A stretch of DNA of 20,000 nt from an uncultured virus (IMG/VR IMGVR_UViG_3300046810_000373). Taxonomy: Duplodnaviria; Heunggongvirae; Uroviricota; Caudoviricetes; Schitoviridae. The notes below the pieces were generated by a model that made no database searches, was not told where the DNA came from, and saw only the letters and a program-made list of their open reading frames with translations. Made by a program: the position numbers and the translations under genes. Shown one piece after another: positions 3,878 through 20,000 of the stretch (positions are counted from its first letter, which is position 1; every line of letters begins with the position of its first letter). Where the stretch lies: IMG/VR virus record IMGVR_UViG_3300046810_000373, one strand, 5' to 3'.

Positions 3878-4340
3878 TATATCTTAATTAGATAGTACAT
3901 TAATTAATTAACAATCATCATCATATTAACCATAATCAGGATAGATAATCATCTCATAATCCTGATAGTCTCATCTCTGGCTCACAGATCATGTTCATGG
4001 CTCCTGGCTAAAGCCTACCTGGCTCGAGCCAGTGAGATCATCAACGATCGTGCATGTCCTCATCGAGGATCTCATACATGTGAGAATAATGGGAAAGATG
4101 GGGTATTTCAGTACATATTTGTTGAAATACACACTGATCTCATTCCCACTTTTGTGATGTTATACCAATTCAAATCCTAGCTCGTTCTCGAGCTCTCCCT
4201 AAAATCTCCCCCAAATCCAGACCGTTCATAATGGTCTCTGATTTTCCCCTTTCCATTTATCCGGATTATGGTAGTCCCTTTCAAGATATCTATCTTGAGG
4301 GCTATCCATATATGCTCAAACTCCAACCAAGGATAACCAA

Positions 4341-12776: not shown

Positions 12777-13157
12777 ATGATCTTCGTGTTCGGCTCGAAT
12801 TTGGCCGGCATCCACGGCGCCGGCGCTGCTCTCAAAGCAGTCAAATTCCATGGCGCTGTTCTCGGCGATGGCGTCGGGCTTCGCGGTGAAAGCTACGCAA
12901 TACCAACAAAATCTGTGACGTTGCAGACCTTGGCTCTGGATATCATCAAGAGACACGTCGATGAGTTCATTGCTCATGCCGAGGACAATCCCGACCTAGG
13001 CTACCAAGTCACTCGGATCGATTTCGGCCTGGCTGGTTACACCGACCAGGAAATTGCTCCTATGTTCCTCTCTGCCCCTGCGAAGAATTGCTTCTTCGAT
13101 ACCAAGTGGAGACCCATCCTCGGCAACAGGTTCGAGTACTGGGGCAGTTATGGGTAA
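12777..13157 (+). CDS. N4 gp14-like protein (macrodomain-like fold)
   Basis: IFVFGSNLAGIHGAGAA...SYAIPTK...VTRI(DF)GLAGY..IAPMF; located just before RNAP1 as in N4. Confidence 0.85.
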   Translation: MIFVFGSNLAGIHGAGAALKAVKFHGAVLGDGVGLRGESYAIPTKSVTLQTLALDIIKRHVDEFIAHAEDNPDLGYQVTRIDFGLAGYTDQEIAPMFLSAPAKNCFFDTKWRPILGNRFEYWGSYG

Positions 13158-13214
13158 TCTCCTCAAACTATTATTACTGATAATCACAACCGGATTATCT
13201 TTAATACGCGAAAT

Positions 13215-13243
13215 AAGGTCGCTGAGAGATCAGCGGCCTTTTC
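13215..13243 (+). terminator. Terminator-like hairpin upstream of RNAP1
   Basis: AAGGTCGCTGA-GAGA-TCAGCGGCCTT followed by TT. Confidence 0.55.
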
Positions 13244-13332
13244 TACATCCGCAATCCTCGAGTCCAGTATTCCTGGATCTCGTCGCTTCCAATTCCGTCA
13301 TCTCACAGCCCCTGCTTGAGGAGCCCAAACCC

Positions 13333-14136
13333 ATGATCCAGTTTCAGATCGAGATTGAGAAGCTGTTCCACAAGAACCAGCTCTTCCCGCGTATCAAGAA
13401 CGAGTTCACCGAGGTGCCCGGGATCCAGAAGCATCTCGAGAAGCACGGCATCGACATCGAGTTCGGCTATGATCTCCTGGTTCAGATGGTTCTGCACAAG
13501 CGGGCCCATCTCCCAGTCTTGGTCGGCCTACTTCGCAAGCATTTCGAAGGGGACTGCCAGGCCACGGCCGATGCCCTGCTCAAGGCCTGCCAGGCGGACC
13601 TGATCGACTGGAACCCCACCAGTCACCAGTTCATCATCCGCTATGACATCACCCCTGATGTCCAGGCCGAGCTCGAACGCTTCCAGTATCCAATGCCGAT
13701 GGTTGTCGAGCCGTTGAGGCTCAAGGACAATCACGACACCGGCTACTACACCTCGAAGAACTCGGTGATCCTGAAGCAGAACCACCACGACAAGGACGTC
13801 TGCCTCGACCACCTCGATCGCGTGAACCGGATCAAGCTCAAGCTCGATATGGACACGGCCACCACGATCAAGAACTACTGGCGCCACCTCGACAAGCCCA
13901 AGCCTGACGAGGACCAGAAGGAGTTCCAGCGCCGGGTGAAAGCCTTCGAGAAATACGATCGCACCGCCCATGACGTTCTGACCCATCTGGGTCTGGCCGC
14001 CGGCGGGGAGTTCTATCTCACCCACAAGTACGACAAGCGCGGCCGCACCTACGCCCAGGGCTACCACGTCAACTACCAGGGCGCCTGCTGGAATAAGGCC
14101 GTGATCGCCTTTGCCAATGAGGAGATCGTGTCTTGA
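13333..14136 (+). CDS. RNA polymerase II subunit A (N4 gp15-like, RNAP1)
   Basis: GAGGAG SD; QYPMPMVVEP, GY, NHHDKDVCLDHL, FYLTHKYDKRGRTYAQGYHVNYQG (DxxGR motif of T7-like RNAPs). Confidence 0.95.
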   Translation: MIQFQIEIEKLFHKNQLFPRIKNEFTEVPGIQKHLEKHGIDIEFGYDLLVQMVLHKRAHLPVLVGLLRKHFEGDCQATADALLKACQADLIDWNPTSHQFIIRYDITPDVQAELERFQYPMPMVVEPLRLKDNHDTGYYTSKNSVILKQNHHDKDVCLDHLDRVNRIKLKLDMDTATTIKNYWRHLDKPKPDEDQKEFQRRVKAFEKYDRTAHDVLTHLGLAAGGEFYLTHKYDKRGRTYAQGYHVNYQGACWNKAVIAFANEEIVS

Positions 14137-16252: not shown

Positions 16253-17461
16253 ATGTTTCAGACCTTCACTGGGCGCGAATACCTCAAGATCGACATCGCC
16301 AATAACTTCGGCGGCGGTCTCGATAAGCAGGACTGGAATGCTCGCATTGCCTGGTTCGACCAGAACGAGAACCAGCTCAGTGCCTTGGTCAAGCAGGCCG
16401 AGGAACCTGCTCTCTTCTACGCCGGCGCCGTAGCCTGGCAGAAGATGAAAGAGGGTAAGCCCTCGGGCTACCCGATCTCACTCGATGCAACATCTTCGGG
16501 GATCCAGATCCTCGCCTGTCTTGCCGGCGATCGCAAAGCTGCCGAGCTCTGCAATGTCATCGACACCGGCCGTCGGGAGGATGCCTATACTGTCCTCTAT
16601 GAGCACATGGTCAACGAGATCGCCGACACCGCCAAGATCGACCGCAAGCAGACGAAGCAGGCCATCATGACCAGCTTCTATGGCTCCACCGCCATGCCTA
16701 AGAACATCTTCGGCGAAGGCGAGCTGCTCGACGTCTTCTACAAGACCATGCAAGAGCGTGCTCCCGGCGCCTGGGAGATCAACGAGACCATGCTCGCCAT
16801 CTGGGACGATAAGGCCCTGGTGAACGAGTGGGCCATGCCCGACAACTTTCATGTCGTCGTCAAGGTCATGAACTCGGTCTCCGAGAACGTGCACTTCCTC
16901 AACCAGCCCTTCGAGGTCACCTACTCCGTCAACGAGCCGATCGAGAATGGGCGGTCCCTGGGAGCCAATGTCGTTCATTCCATTGACGGCATGATCGTTC
17001 GGGAGATGGCCCGTCGCTGCTCCTTCGACCTGGCCATGATCGAGCGTCTGGAGAACCTCATCCGGCGCTGCGTCAAGACCAAGAACACCCATCGAGCCAA
17101 GGACGATATGGTCCTGATCCTGTGGGGCCGCTATCTGGAATCGGGCTTTCTCTCAGCCCGGATCCTCGACTATCTCGACGAGGAGAACTTCGGTCTCGTC
17201 GATCGTGACGCTATCGTCCGAATGCTGAACAGCCTGCCCCGCAAGCCCTTCGACGTAATCTCGGTCCATGACTGCTTCAGGTGCCTGCCCAACTATGGCA
17301 ACGATCTGCGGCAGCAATACAACAATCTCCTGGCCGAGATCGCCGAATCCGAGATGCTCAGCTTCCTGGTCTCGCAGATCGTGCATCGGCCGGTCCAGGT
17401 CGCCAAGCTCGATCCCACTTTGGCTCGGGACGTGCGGTCCACCAACTACGCGCTCTCCTGA
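16253..17461 (+). CDS. RNA polymerase II subunit B (N4 gp16-like, RNAP2)
   Basis: AGGAG SD; motif A LDATSSGIQ, motif B RKQTKQAIMTSFYGS, NVVHSIDG, motif C VHDCF. Confidence 0.96.
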   Translation: MFQTFTGREYLKIDIANNFGGGLDKQDWNARIAWFDQNENQLSALVKQAEEPALFYAGAVAWQKMKEGKPSGYPISLDATSSGIQILACLAGDRKAAELCNVIDTGRREDAYTVLYEHMVNEIADTAKIDRKQTKQAIMTSFYGSTAMPKNIFGEGELLDVFYKTMQERAPGAWEINETMLAIWDDKALVNEWAMPDNFHVVVKVMNSVSENVHFLNQPFEVTYSVNEPIENGRSLGANVVHSIDGMIVREMARRCSFDLAMIERLENLIRRCVKTKNTHRAKDDMVLILWGRYLESGFLSARILDYLDEENFGLVDRDAIVRMLNSLPRKPFDVISVHDCFRCLPNYGNDLRQQYNNLLAEIAESEMLSFLVSQIVHRPVQVAKLDPTLARDVRSTNYALS

Positions 17462-17470
17462 TCCCGCCTC

Positions 17471-17503
17471 GCCCCAGGTCCCTTGTGGATCTGGGGCTTT
17501 TTT
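17471..17503 (+). terminator. Rho-independent terminator after RNAP2
   Basis: GCCCCAGGTCC-CTTGT-GGATCTGGGGC-TTTTTT. Confidence 0.9.
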
Positions 17504-18052: not shown

Positions 18053-18598
18053 ATGACAACCTATACCGCCGGTCTCAGCACCGATCAGAAATCGGTCTTC
18101 GTCATTACCTCGGGTGGCACGCTCCCCGTCGGAGCCACGGGCATCGGCAGCTTCGACCACGATGAATCCGATGATGAGCTGGGCGCTCTCGCCTCCGGCC
18201 ATGCCATCTTCCACCATATCCGTGATCTCCTCTACAAGACGAGCCATGCGGATCCTTCGGAGGCTGCCAGCTACCCCGACGGCATCTACAATATGGCTGA
18301 GATCGCGATCCTGCTCGCCTGGGCTGCGACCAATACCGTTCTGCCGGCAATCACCGGCACTGCTCAGGTCGGTCAGGTGCTGACCACCACCAATGGCACC
18401 TGGAACGGCACGCCGGCGCCGACCTATACTCGCCAGTGGAAAGCCAACGGCGTCGCGATCGTGGGAGCCACCGGAACGACCTATACCCCCGTCGTCGGCG
18501 ACATCGGCAAGACCATCACGTGCACGATCACGGCGACCAACACCGCCGGTGCAACCACTGCGACCAGCGCAGCGACAGCCGCGGTAATCGCCGCATAA
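18053..18598 (+). CDS. Ig-like domain virion protein, positional equivalent of N4 gp17 capsid decoration protein
   Basis: AGGA SD; PAITGTAQVGQVLT...GTW...YTRQWKANG..I.GATGTTYT...DIGKTITCTITATN Ig-like repeat; located downstream of RNAP2. Confidence 0.8.
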   Translation: MTTYTAGLSTDQKSVFVITSGGTLPVGATGIGSFDHDESDDELGALASGHAIFHHIRDLLYKTSHADPSEAASYPDGIYNMAEIAILLAWAATNTVLPAITGTAQVGQVLTTTNGTWNGTPAPTYTRQWKANGVAIVGATGTTYTPVVGDIGKTITCTITATNTAGATTATSAATAAVIAA

Positions 18599-18624
18599 CC
18601 ATTCTGGTTATAAAAATAATGGAC

Positions 18625-18657
18625 AGCCCCTCATTTTAATTAATGGGGGGCTTTTTT
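18625..18657 (+). terminator. Rho-independent terminator after the Ig-like gene
   Basis: AGCCCCTCATT / AATGGGGGGCT followed by a T-run. Confidence 0.85.
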
Positions 18658-18714
18658 CTTGGCCGAAAATCGGTCATTACCGTTTCAAGTTATCTTCAAA
18701 ACCCGAGCCAGAAA

Positions 18715-18936
18715 ATGCCCAAAGCTCCTGATCTGAAGGCGCTCGTTTTTGAGAGCCTCAACAACGCGAAGCTGAACACCGCTTTCGAGCCCGGCGGTAG
18801 TCTCCGCAATCTCTCTTTGGAGCAGATCGCCATCGATCTCTGCTCATATTCCTCAGACCTGGATCACGTCGACGAAATCAAAGAGGTGATCCCCCATATC
18901 GAGGCCTGGTTCAAAGAAATTGGAACAGGCCCATGA
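18715..18936 (+). CDS. Hypothetical protein (MPKAPDLK...)
   Basis: In-frame ATG after the terminator; ATGA overlap with the next gene. Confidence 0.65.
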   Translation: MPKAPDLKALVFESLNNAKLNTAFEPGGSLRNLSLEQIAIDLCSYSSDLDHVDEIKEVIPHIEAWFKEIGTGP

Positions 18937-19154
18937 TCGAGCTTCTCCCTCACGAGGACTTCAAGCTCGAGGTCCTGCGACCTCCTGGTCCAGGAGGTCA
19001 GCACGCCGGTACGGTTCCCACCACGATCCGGATCACCCATCTTCCGTCTGGAGCCATGGCCCAATATGGCGCCTGCCGCTCACAGCACCTCAATAAGACG
19101 ATCGCTTCCGAGATGCTCTTGGCTGCGCTGACCCACCCCCGTCACAACCGCTAA
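18933..19154 (+). CDS. Stand-alone RF-1/GGQ domain protein (release-factor-like peptidyl-tRNA hydrolase domain)
   Basis: DFKLEVLR.PGPGGQH.....IRITHLPSG.......RSQHLNK..A..ML aligns with the class I release factor domain 3 consensus. Confidence 0.85.
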   Translation: MIELLPHEDFKLEVLRPPGPGGQHAGTVPTTIRITHLPSGAMAQYGACRSQHLNKTIASEMLLAALTHPRHNR

Positions 19155-19189
19155 TCAAGCCCAAAAACCCTCATCAGGAACCCGAGATA

Positions 19190-20000
19190 ATGGCCGACTT
19201 GTCCGCCTACACCTGTACCCCCCGGCAGATCCGGGAATATGTCATCGATTGCATCAAGGCCGGACTGGTGCCTTTCGTCCGGTCTTCTCCCGGCATGGGT
19301 AAGAGCGCCATCATCAACGCGATCGCCAGGGAATTTGGCCTCAAGGTCATCGACCTTCGTCTCTCTCAGGCCACACCGGAAGACGCCCAGGGGCTTCCTC
19401 GCTTTCGGGATATCACCGACGACGCAGGCACCGTTCTGCGGTCGATTTCCGAATTCGTGCCCTTCGAAACGTTTCCGGTCGAGAGCACACCGATCCCGGC
19501 CGGCTTCAATGGTTGGCTCCTGTTCCTCGACGAGTTCAACTCGGGAACCAAAATGGTCCAGGCGGCCATGTACAAGATCATCCTCGACAAGATGGTCGGC
19601 CAGGACAAGCTGCATCCCAATGTTGCGATCGTCTGCGCCGGCAATCTCGAGGGCGATCGAGCCATCGTCAACTCGCTGTCAACGGCGATGCAGTCTCGCT
19701 TGGTTCACCTGATCATGCGGCTCGACCATGAGCAGTTCATGAAGGATGTGGCCTTCAAGAACCACTGGGATCCGCGGATCATCGCATATCTCAGCTACAA
19801 GCAGGGCGCCCTACATGACTTCCAGCCCGACCACGATGGGCACACCTTCTCGTGCCCACGCACCTGGGAGTTCATGAACAAGTTGATCTCGGGCAACGAG
19901 GTCACCGAGGACAAGGCGGCGCTCTACGCCGGCACGATCACATCCGGCACAGCCGTTGAGTTCATCACCTTCACCAAGGTGTTCAACGAACTGCCGAGCC
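19190..20000 (+). CDS. MoxR-like AAA+ ATPase, N4 gp24-like (5' part; runs off the window end)
   Basis: Translated by hand: MADLSAYTCTPRQ...SSPGMGKS (Walker A)...IDLRLSQ...WLLFLDEFNS (Walker B)...CAGN..DRAIVN.LSTAMQSRL; AGGA SD. Confidence 0.92.
   Translation, partial: MADLSAYTCTPRQIREYVIDCIKAGLVPFVRSSPGMGKSAIINAIAREFGLKVIDLRLSQATPEDAQGLPRFRDITDDAGTVLRSISEFVPFETFPVESTPIPAGFNGWLLFLDEFNSGTKMVQAAMYKIILDKMVGQDKLHPNVAIVCAGNLEGDRAIVNSLSTAMQSRLVHLIMRLDHEQFMKDVAFKNHWDPRIIAYLSYKQGALHDFQPDHDGHTFSCPRTWEFMNKLISGNEVTEDKAALYAGTITSGTAVEFITFTKVFNELPS

What the first reader, a model, noticed from the sequence alone, without database searches (positions are those of the whole stretch)
18933..19154. Minimal 73-aa GGQ release-factor domain encoded by the phage
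Seen: intact GPGGQH, IRITHLPSG and RSQHxNK motifs, no stop-codon recognition domain and only a very short basic tail (HPRHNR). Known: class I RFs, ArfB and PrfH hydrolyse peptidyl-tRNA through GGQ, and ArfB needs a long basic C-tail to sense the empty mRNA channel. Inference: this could be a tail-less rescue factor working alone or with a partner (the coupled 18715 ORF, or speculatively the tRNA-like RNA), freeing ribosomes stalled by defence RNases. Alternatives are a PrmC decoy or a host-translation inhibitor.
Basis: partly seen in the sequence, partly recalled or inferred. Interest (0 to 1): 0.72.

Follow-up and report, generated by a model that had tools for sequence, protein, structure and literature searches.

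The report
Phage stand-alone mini GGQ release-factor domain
An N4-like phage of rhizosphere bacteria carries a real 73-residue gene that is only the peptide-releasing (GGQ) domain of a bacterial release factor; it belongs to a large, conserved, unstudied family of phage proteins whose action on the ribosome is still unknown.

Summary
Window 18933-19154 (+) encodes a 73-aa protein that passes Pfam RF-1 (E 3e-14, 53 bits against a cut-off of 35). It folds confidently as release-factor domain 3. It has no codon-recognition domain and no ArfB-type linker or tail.

It is not a fragment. It belongs to a family of about 70-aa "mini-GGQ" proteins: 1135 clusters at E<=1e-10 in the 37-161 aa band. 61 of 84 viral loci examined carry the short form. 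GGQ is invariant in 112 of 112 best members. The family has its own C-terminal cap, T-[H/S]-P-x-[F/Y]-R, and a median dN/dS of 0.32.

By sequence and fold it is RF1/RF2/PrfH-type, not ArfB-type. The family occurs in unrelated phage backbones (N4-like, lambdoid-like replication modules, PhoH neighbourhoods) and in alphaproteobacterial genome contigs. No partner gene is conserved with it. The coupled upstream ORF is an orphan of this phage lineage, and no tRNA-like RNA was detected in the window.

The function is inferred. Most likely it triggers codon-independent peptidyl-tRNA hydrolysis at a vacant ribosomal A site. Against this, the ArfB GGQ domain alone neither binds ribosomes nor is active. 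A decoy or inhibitor role stays open. I found no paper on this family. Verdict: a new variant of a known kind, of moderate to high interest.

The parts
18625..18652 (+). Intrinsic-terminator-like hairpin followed by a T run. It closes the preceding Ig-domain structural gene (18053-18598), so the GGQ gene lies in a unit that starts after it.
   Evidence: The terminator scan finds 11 pairs followed by TTTTTCTT. The stem is kept by compensatory changes in the 99%-identical relative L001.
18715..18936 (+). Upstream 73-aa orphan ORF. Its TGA overlaps the ATG of the GGQ gene. An alternative start at 18643 lies inside the terminator stem.
   Evidence: No Pfam, PHROG or PADLOC family. Only one other homologue cluster, P0164, at 74% identity. 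Best AF2 model has three helices and pLDDT 72.8; the other four models score 54-56. No PDB fold match at E<=0.001.
18933..19154 (+). The mini-GGQ gene: 73 aa, consisting only of an RF1/RF2-type domain 3 (GGQ domain), with C-terminal cap THPRHNR.
   Evidence: Family membership.
19190..19999 (+). Downstream neighbour given for context only: an N4 gp24-like AAA ATPase that runs off the window. It fixes the locus in the early/middle (replication) region of an N4-like genome.
   Evidence: PHROG 1297 ATPase at E 1e-99, and Pfam AAA. Synteny with Sinorhizobium phage ort11 gp43, which is annotated as similar to N4 gp24.

Best explanation
The gene encodes a functional stand-alone GGQ domain of the RF1/RF2/PrfH type. 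It belongs to a large phage and prophage family of about 70-aa mini-GGQ proteins.

Proposed mechanism (inferred, not shown): the protein is made from the early/middle gene block of this N4-like phage. It docks in the large-subunit A site next to the peptidyl-transferase centre wherever that site stays vacant long enough. Its GGQ loop then triggers hydrolysis of the P-site peptidyl-tRNA, with no reading of a codon and no probing of the mRNA channel.

Likely substrates are ribosomes stalled with an empty A site, with mRNA intact or cut, or split 50S-peptidyl-tRNA particles. Either way ribosomes and tRNAs are freed during infection. The family-specific C-terminal cap T-[H/S]-P-x-[F/Y]-R, which ends the helix where RF helix alpha-7 would continue, may serve as a minimal anchor or as a contact for a host factor.

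Shown here: domain identity, fold, family, conservation, selection and genomic contexts. Inferred: ribosome binding, hydrolysis, substrate and benefit to the phage.
For: Domain and fold:
- Pfam RF-1 at 53.4 bits against a cut-off of 35.
- AF2 model with pLDDT 88.5.
- Foldseek best hits are domain 3 of ribosome-bound RF2 and RF1, TM 0.62-0.70.
- NCBIfam gives prfB 1.4e-13, prfH 3.7e-13 and prfA about 1e-12. ArfB scores only 7e-4, over residues 5-35.

A real family:
- 28 of the best 150 representatives are <=95 aa.
- 1135 clusters at E<=1e-10 among 1930 candidates in the 37-161 aa band. 108 of the 114 newly returned proteins among the 120 best rows are <=80 aa.
- 61 of 84 viral loci have <=25 residues after the domain.
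- In a careful tree of 161 rows, the 33 family rows form one side of a branch. Support is 87/61, in 88% of bootstrap trees. The group was defined post hoc from the quick tree.

Residues expected to matter at the peptidyl-transferase centre are kept:
- In 112 aligned members G22, Q23, H36, Q51, N54, M61 and T67 are at 100%. G21, G26, P38 and S50 are at 99%.
- GGQ is present in 51 of 52 distinct viral cores and in 25 of 29 diverse representatives.

Purifying selection:
- Median NG86 dN/dS is 0.32 over 742 pairs, and 652 pairs are below 0.5. dS is high, so the values are rough.

The family moves between phage backbones as a single gene:
- It sits in an N4-like backbone (window, L001), a RusA / replication-initiator / DnaA-HTH module (about 20 loci) and a PhoH neighbourhood (7 loci).
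- This fits a factor that works on a universal host machine.

Link to tRNA genes:
- In 9 of 57 loci scanned, tRNA genes lie 0.4-2.2 kb downstream on the same strand.
- In 4 of 5 whole records checked, that tRNA is the only one in the record.
Against: - The closest experimental precedent argues against solo activity. E. coli YaeJ/ArfB lacking residues 101-140 (GGQ domain alone) stayed entirely in the soluble fraction and had no peptidyl-tRNA hydrolase activity (PMC3950681, section 'Ribosome binding').
- The family is not uniformly basic. Core pI has a median of 8.1 and a range of 5.6-10.7; the window protein is 9.2.
- Conservation of GGQ and of the domain surface is equally expected if the protein is a mimic that titrates something recognising RF domain 3.
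- 4 of 29 diverse representatives have a degenerate GGQ: NGQ, EGQ, SPQ and PGM.
- The window protein lacks the family's usual [F/Y]-R at the very end (RHNR instead).
- The tRNA neighbourhood may only reflect an accessory-gene hot spot downstream of the replication genes in lambdoid-type genomes. The loci that show it are partly related to each other.
- There are no expression or biochemical data. No isolate with a close relative of the window protein was found in the phage genome collection. Only distant mini-GGQ folds from isolated phages appear in BFVD.
Confidence: 0.5

Rival explanations
1. Domain-3 mimic (decoy or blocker). The protein does not release peptides. Instead it titrates a host factor that recognises the GGQ domain of RF1/RF2, most obviously the glutamine methyltransferase PrmC. 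Alternatively it occupies the A-site side of the peptidyl-transferase centre unproductively. Either way it alters termination or translation to the phage's advantage.
For: - It is RF1/RF2-type rather than ArfB-type in sequence and fold, so it resembles the natural PrmC substrate.
- RF1 in its complex with PrmC (2b3t_B) is among the fold hits (rank 18).
- The isolated ArfB GGQ domain does not bind ribosomes, which favours a non-ribosomal target.
- Strict conservation of GGQ and neighbouring residues is also what a substrate mimic needs.
Against: - No benefit to a phage from weakened termination is evident.
- No binding test could be run here.
- The residues after GGQ differ from RFs: the family has H-V-G where the aligned RF1 has H-V-N-T-T. 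This might weaken recognition by PrmC.
- The conserved C-terminal cap is unexplained by this model.
Confidence: 0.2
2. Host-translation abortion factor. The chemistry is the same as in the best explanation, but the role is offensive. An unsensored GGQ domain causes premature peptide release on elongating host ribosomes, as part of host takeover.
For: - It lacks every element that restricts RFs, ArfB or PrfH to their proper substrates.
- It sits in the early/middle block next to the phage RNA polymerases and replication genes.
Against: - It would hit phage translation equally.
- It is carried by proviruses and bacterial genome contigs, where a general toxin would need tight repression or an antidote. 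No conserved neighbour that could be an antidote was found.
Confidence: 0.15
3. Two-piece rescue factor. The mini-GGQ needs the translationally coupled upstream 73-aa protein (18715-18936) as its ribosome-binding or sensing subunit, in the way mtRF-R works with MTRES1.
For: - The ATGA stop/start overlap.
- Both genes lie behind one terminator.
- The pair is kept in the near-identical relative L001.
- A 74%-identical homologue of the upstream protein exists.
Against: - The upstream protein is confined to this phage lineage, whereas the GGQ family is found with quite different neighbours elsewhere.
- It has no family.
- No usable feature match in the protein atlas.
- Its model is a low-confidence three-helix bundle, not an S4-like RNA-binding fold. 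No PDB match at E<=0.001.
Confidence: 0.07
4. Decaying fragment of a host prfA/prfB gene picked up by the phage, with no function.
For: It is short, and its annotation names in public sources read 'release factor A/B'.
Against: - A family-wide fixed length, with its own conserved N- and C-termini, an invariant motif set and purifying selection.
- A separate clade from full-length RFs.
- Only about 40% identity to RF1/RF2.
Confidence: 0.02

Closest known systems
Domain 3 (GGQ domain) of bacterial class I release factors RF1/RF2
   Same: Best sequence and fold match: E about 2e-9 to PDB RF1/RF2 chains, about 40% identity, TM 0.62-0.70. Same strand / GGQ loop / hairpin / helix core, with GGQ, THxP(S/T)G and RSQxxN motifs.
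   Different: It is only that domain. Domains 1, 2 and 4, the tripeptide codon reader and the switch loop are absent. The helix ends after 16 residues in the family cap T-[H/S]-P-x-[F/Y]-R. After GGQ-H-V it has G where the aligned RF1 has N-T-T.
ArfB (YaeJ) / mitochondrial ICT1
   Same: A small, codon-independent GGQ protein, and the model for what a stand-alone GGQ factor can do.
   Different: It lacks the ArfB/ICT1-specific inserted helix region between the strands. It also lacks the roughly 40-residue linker and basic tail that bind the empty mRNA channel. ArfB is inactive and unbound without these (PMC3950681, passages read). The NCBIfam ArfB model scores 19 bits against a cut-off of 100 and aligns only residues 5-35.
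PrfH (with RtcB2)
   Same: An RF homologue with a conserved GGQ domain that acts without a stop codon on a special class of stalled ribosomes. It scores as well as prfB (3.7e-13). The PrfH structures 7sa4 and 9mor are fold hits.
   Different: PrfH keeps an N-terminal recognition domain that reads the damaged decoding centre, and it is encoded with RtcB2 (PMC9304027, passages read). Neither is present here.
mtRF-R (C12orf65) with MTRES1 on split large subunits
   Same: A GGQ factor that does not sense the small subunit and acts on large-subunit-peptidyl-tRNA after stalling caused by lack of charged tRNA (review PMC8786322, passages read). Weak fold hits to 2rsm and 7a5h_C.
   Different: mtRF-R has a C-terminal extension and a dedicated partner. 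No equivalent partner is conserved with the phage family.
Small phage proteins annotated 'RF-1 domain peptide chain release factor' or 'release factor-like' (PHROG 20323; BFVD entries of 64-83 aa, e.g. an uncultured Caudovirales phage 72-aa protein, Acinetobacter phages 133 and Henu6)
   Same: Same size class and fold (PHROG 20323 profile of 73 positions, E 6e-8; BFVD TM 0.64-0.70). This shows that GGQ-only proteins are already catalogued in phages.
   Different: These are annotation only. I found no functional study. Sequence identity to the cultured-phage examples is low (26-41%). The window's subfamily was not found in isolated phages in the genome collection.

Membership tests
Pfam RF-1 domain (PF00472) | Profile score at or above the curated gathering score | tested here: met
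   53.4 bits against 35, E 3.1e-14.
Pfam RF-1 domain (PF00472) | GGQ tripeptide in the loop after the first strand, and the domain-3 alpha/beta fold | tested here: met
   GGQ is at residues 21-23. The model shows strand / loop / hairpin / helix. TM is 0.62-0.70 to RF1/RF2 domain 3.
Class I release factor (RF1/RF2) | Codon-recognition superdomain (domains 2/4 with the tripeptide reader) and domain 1 | tested here: not met
   The protein is 73 aa in total. The prfB and prfA models align only at positions 225-288 of 353 and 221-283 of 361. Scores are 46-51 bits against cut-offs of 370-423.
ArfB / YaeJ / ICT1 | Inserted helix region within the GGQ domain (feature as described in PMC3950681) | tested here: not met
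   Only five residues lie between strands 31-36 and 42-45. The ArfB model aligns only residues 5-35.
ArfB / YaeJ / ICT1 | Linker plus basic C-terminal helix that occupies the mRNA channel | tested here: not met
   Seven residues follow the last helix. NF006718 scores 19.2 bits against a cut-off of 100.
PrfH | N-terminal recognition domain; gene paired with RtcB2 | tested here: not met
   There is no N-terminal domain: the release_prfH model aligns only positions 105-168 of 200, at 49.5 bits against 166.65. The neighbours are an orphan ORF and an AAA ATPase. None of the 34 window ORFs scanned against PHROGs was named as an RNA ligase.
mtRF-R (C12orf65) / MTRES1 pair | C-terminal extension on the GGQ protein and a dedicated RNA-binding partner | tested here: not met
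   There is no extension. No partner is conserved across the family. The upstream ORF is modelled as all-helical with low confidence, and has no family.
   All features are present in the window protein except the final [F/Y]-R, where it has THPRHNR. It lies inside the family clade.
Functional ribosome rescue factor (any kind) | Ribosome binding and GGQ-dependent peptidyl-tRNA hydrolysis | not testable with these tools
   Needs biochemistry; see the decisive next steps.

The most novel reading that the evidence does not exclude
The missing tail is the point. The mini-GGQ would be a sensor-less release factor that relies on kinetic competition alone. It would clear any ribosome, or split 50S-peptidyl-tRNA, whose A site stays empty, including ribosomes stalled on intact mRNA. 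tmRNA, ArfA and ArfB handle those poorly. Phages would carry it, often beside their own tRNA genes, to keep the translation apparatus turning over when host defences or starvation deplete or cut tRNAs and mRNAs. The conserved T-H-P-x-F-R cap would act as a minimal large-subunit anchor. This would be a new, third logic of bacterial ribosome rescue, and the smallest known release factor.
Probability: 0.2. Interest if true: 0.8.

Novelty: new variant of a known kind. Interest (0 to 1): 0.6.

Why it matters
Every characterised GGQ factor (RF1/RF2, ArfB/ICT1, PrfH, mtRF-R) couples the catalytic domain to a module that tells it when to fire. The isolated ArfB GGQ domain is inert.

This is a family of more than a thousand sequence clusters that consists of the catalytic domain alone. 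It is under selection and spread among unrelated phages. So either a roughly 70-residue GGQ domain can work on the ribosome by itself, through its own short cap or a host factor, or phages use a release-factor mimic for something else.

Either answer would be new for ribosome rescue and for phage takeover or counter-defence. At about 70 residues the protein is very easy to test.

Tried and rejected
**Complex prediction (GGQ alignment A2 with upstream-ORF alignment A5)**
Every call returned 'queue full' or 'too early', then 'not available'.
- Nothing was folded, so pairing of the two proteins remains untested.

**No whole genome held for the window**

**tRNA-like RNA in the window**
- ARAGORN found 0. 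Rfam found 0 at gathering score.
- At E<=1, Rfam gave only two sub-threshold sRNA rows, one of which overlies the 17471-17497 terminator.
- ARAGORN at 85% and 70% thresholds gave 10 and 206 scattered calls. These fall inside coding regions and I treat them as noise.

**Expression**
- No RNA holder is listed for the stretch.

**Alignments too diverse**
- The search for related loci rejected A2, and rejected A3 for genome contigs. Narrower alignments were used instead.
- The genome scan therefore used one narrow pattern, and its 7 loci greatly undercount the family.

**Other checks on the locus**
- PADLOC: no defence-family hit for the GGQ protein or the upstream ORF.
- Protein atlas and PDB fold search on the upstream ORF: nothing usable.
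- The motif AACCCGAG lies upstream of both start codons, 18715 and 19190. There are 2 matches, but 22 of 200 shuffles do as well, so it is not significant.

**Apparent hits in isolated phages**
- The Pseudomonas phage Y1 hit is a full RF2-like ORF in an unverified record, not a mini-GGQ.
- Most of the 45 phage-collection hits are RF1/RF2-like stretches in unannotated or host-like records.

**Literature**
- Seven full-text searches found no paper on phage GGQ-only proteins.
- Burroughs and Aravind 2019 (PMC6514570) has no occurrence of 'phage' and mentions only ArfB as a stand-alone bacterial RF domain (passages read). Supplements were not examined.

Full report
**1. The observation**

Window 18933-19154 (+) is an ATG-to-TAA ORF of 73 codons. 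Its ATG overlaps the TGA of the preceding ORF (ATGA). The product carries PGPGGQHAG, IRITHLPSG and RSQHLNK, and ends in THPRHNR.

- Pfam RF-1 matches residues 5-68 at E 3.1e-14 and 53.4 bits, against a curated cut-off of 35.
- PHROGs gives 'RF-1 domain peptide chain release factor' families: phrog_20323, a 73-position profile, at 6e-8, and phrog_3122 at 2e-6.
- Against PDB sequences, all 43 hits at E<=1e-3 are RF1, RF2, PrfH or mitochondrial RF1-type factors aligned on their GGQ domain. None is ArfB or ICT1.
- An AlphaFold2 model built on a 29-sequence family alignment has pLDDT 88.5: strand 10-15, GGQ loop, strands 31-36 and 42-45, helix 51-66.
- The model superposes on domain 3 of ribosome-bound RF2 and RF1 at TM 0.62-0.70, with PrfH and C12orf65/mtRF-R further down the list.

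**2. The setting**

The window is part of an N4-like (Schitoviridae) genome.
- ORFs match the N4-like RNA polymerase subunits (13054-14136 and 16253-17461), a DprA-like protein and a terminase fragment.
- An Ig-domain structural protein lies at 18053-18598, and an N4 gp24-like AAA ATPase starts at 19190.
- The closest isolates are N4-like phages of Sinorhizobium, Rhizobium and Agrobacterium, with RNAP2 at 60-64% amino-acid identity.
- The stretch is held by rhizosphere-metagenome DNA runs.

In Sinorhizobium phage ort11 the same slot, between the Ig-domain gene and the ATPase, holds two small unrelated ORFs. So this is a variable accessory slot in the early/middle block.

A terminator-like hairpin at 18625-18652 precedes the two-gene pair. 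Its stem is kept by compensatory changes in a 99%-identical relative.

**3. It is a family, not a fragment**

*Size and length*
- A word-indexed search found a 99%-identical 73-aa protein and three 78-79-aa relatives.
- An exhaustive phmmer search gave 2605 hits at E<=1e-3. All four hits at E<=1e-10 are 72-92 aa long, and 28 of the best 150 are <=95 aa.
- A profile of 29 short members retrieved 1135 clusters at E<=1e-10 among 1930 candidates of 37-161 aa. 108 of the 114 newly returned proteins among the 120 best rows are <=80 aa, with a median of 70.
- Public names are only 'protein subunit release factor A/B', 'peptide chain release factor 2' or 'peptide chain release factor-like protein'.

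*Conservation in 112 aligned members*
- At 100%: G22, Q23, H36, Q51, N54, M61 and T67.
- At 99%: G21, G26, P38 and S50.
- At 96-98%: V25 (Ala in the window), G40, A43, R49 and P69.
- The proteins end in T-[H/S]-P-x-[F/Y]-R: F at 72%, Y at 13%, R at 78%.
- The window protein keeps T-H-P but ends in RHNR.

*Exceptions and selection*
- Among the 29 more diverse representatives, 25 have GGQ. The others have NGQ, EGQ, SPQ or PGM.
- In IMG/VR, 117 stretches were confirmed as relatives. Of the 84 loci I examined, 61 have <=25 residues after the domain. They give 52 distinct cores, of which 51 have GGQ. The exception, L045, has an in-frame stop near its N-terminus.
- Pairwise NG86 dN/dS has a median of 0.32 over 742 pairs, and 652 are below 0.5. 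dS is large, so the values are rough.

*Phylogeny*
- In a careful ML tree of 161 GGQ domains, the 33 family rows are one side of a branch, at 87/61 and in 88% of bootstrap trees. A starred 34-row set has support 96/92.
- I defined the group after seeing the quick tree, so this shows coherence and is not an independent test.

**4. Which kind of GGQ domain**

NCBIfam models rank prfB (1.4e-13), prfH (3.7e-13) and prfA (about 1e-12) together. All are far below their full-length cut-offs. ArfB reaches only 7e-4, over residues 5-35.

The model has five residues between the second and third strands. That is where YaeJ and ICT1 carry their characteristic inserted helix region (feature taken from PMC3950681). 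The protein is therefore an RF1/RF2/PrfH-type domain 3. It is cut just inside helix alpha-7: its last residue aligns with about RF1 residue 285, by the offset.

**5. Partners and neighbours**

*The upstream ORF (18715-18936)*
- It has no Pfam, PHROG or PADLOC family.
- It has one other homologue cluster, at 74% identity.
- There is no usable atlas hit.
- Its model is a low-confidence three-helix bundle with no PDB match.

*Neighbours in other phages*
- Neighbours follow the phage backbone, not the GGQ gene.
- About 20 loci show RusA, replication initiator (phrog_270), a DnaA-C HTH protein, the GGQ gene and then a 207-aa protein of phrog_15385.
- Seven loci have a PhoH neighbourhood.
- The two largest 'conserved neighbour' clusters in my script were antisense ORFs over the GGQ gene itself, and I discarded them.

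*Genomes and RNAs*
- One narrow pattern found the family in genome contigs of Rhizobiales, Aquamicrobium, Rhizobium, Ochrobactrum and Sphingopyxis. One IMG/VR record is classed as a provirus.
- No tRNA-like RNA is detectable in the window.

*tRNA genes elsewhere*
- In 9 of 57 other loci scanned, tRNA genes lie 0.4-2.2 kb downstream on the same strand. They are tRNA-Met(CAT) in six loci, His/Asn/Gln in one, Gly in one, and Thr plus a doubtful CTA tRNA in one.
- In 4 of 5 whole records checked, that tRNA is the only one in a record of 34-62 kb. In the fifth, 3 of 4 tRNAs are adjacent.
- Several of these loci are syntenic relatives, and this position resembles the accessory region downstream of the replication genes in lambdoid phages. 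I count it as suggestive only.

Complex prediction for the GGQ protein with the upstream ORF could not be run.

**6. Mechanism**

*Shown*
- An intact, selected RF-type catalytic domain with none of the modules that target known GGQ factors.

*Inferred (confidence about 0.5)*
- It enters a vacant large-subunit A site and triggers peptidyl-tRNA hydrolysis, without reading a codon or the mRNA channel.

*The main objection*
- This is experimental. YaeJ lacking residues 101-140 does not bind ribosomes and is inactive (PMC3950681).

*Ways out*
- The family-specific cap.
- High expression.
- A substrate without a small subunit. mtRF-R acts on split large subunits after tRNA starvation, though it has a partner (PMC8786322).
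- A host co-factor.

*Other readings*
- Conservation cannot separate a decoy reading (PrmC or another reader of domain 3) from the best explanation; I give it 0.2.
- An offensive 'premature release' role gets 0.15. It sits poorly with carriage in proviruses and bacterial genomes.
- A dedicated two-gene factor gets 0.07, and a dead fragment 0.02.

**7. Known or new**

GGQ-only phage proteins are already catalogued.
- PHROG 20323 is one such family.
- BFVD holds models of 64-83 aa from uncultured Caudovirales and from Acinetobacter phages 133 and Henu6.

Seven full-text searches found no study of them. The comparative survey of release-factor domains that I read in passages does not mention phages.

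With E limits of 1e-3 and 1e-6, tblastn of the window protein and of a central family member found no isolate with a close relative in the 50,697-record phage collection.

Earlier notes of this scan describe another phage GGQ gene with a conserved in-frame TGA, and a stand-alone GGQ family in Patescibacteria. I did not test either; they agree that small GGQ-only proteins are widespread and unstudied.

I rate this a new variant of a known kind, with interest 0.6.

Noticed in passing
L013 5039-5115; L024 5849-5925; L037 5188-5264; L039 4881-4957; L081 5009-5085; L091 4188-4264: A phage tRNA-Met(CAT) gene lies 0.7-1.8 kb downstream of the mini-GGQ gene, after a conserved 207-aa protein (phrog_15385). 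In the whole records checked it is the only tRNA. The L039 copy has a C1 x A72 acceptor-end mismatch, which I recall as typical of initiator tRNA. The type (initiator, elongator or Ile2) was not determined.
   Followed up: partly
L020 5069-5142: ARAGORN calls a tRNA with anticodon CTA (labelled 'Pyl', that is, amber-reading) 0.9 kb downstream of a mini-GGQ gene. The Rfam tRNA model did not report it in the whole-record search, so it is doubtful.
   Followed up: partly
L052, L060, L069-L073, L076-L078, L080, L082, L088 (match at about 4001-4190 in most): A second, distinct phage GGQ family of about 112-151 aa. The GGQ domain is at the N-terminus (GGQHQNK type) and is followed by a 50-70-residue extension that does not look ArfB-like. 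It was not analysed further.
   Followed up: no
L097 1126-1710 (Vibrio phage 2.275.O, NVP2275O_093): A jumbo-phage 194-aa 'hypothetical protein' ends in a mini-GGQ-like domain whose motif is degenerate (GMQ). A 125-aa N-terminal region of unknown kind precedes it. P0033 and P0077 show similar N-terminal extensions.
   Followed up: partly
L045 3941-4159: One family member has an in-frame TAA in the first strand region, a possible pseudogene or sequencing error.
   Followed up: partly
window 18598-19190 compared with L009 7200-7842 (Sinorhizobium phage ort11): The interval between the Ig-domain structural gene and the gp24-like ATPase is a variable accessory slot in rhizobial N4-like phages. ort11 has two unrelated small ORFs there (82 and 49 aa), where the window has the orphan ORF and the GGQ gene.
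   Followed up: yes
window 18625-18652 compared with L001: The terminator hairpin differs at several stem positions between the two 99%-identical phages, yet pairing is preserved. These are compensatory changes.
   Followed up: partly
P0055 (218 aa), P0140 (198 aa): Two RF2/PrfH-sized proteins that lack domain 1 have a domain 3 resembling the mini-GGQ family (GGQ-Q-V-G type). They grouped next to the family in the quick tree, so a PrfH-like lineage is a possible source of the phage domain. This is unresolved.
   Followed up: partly
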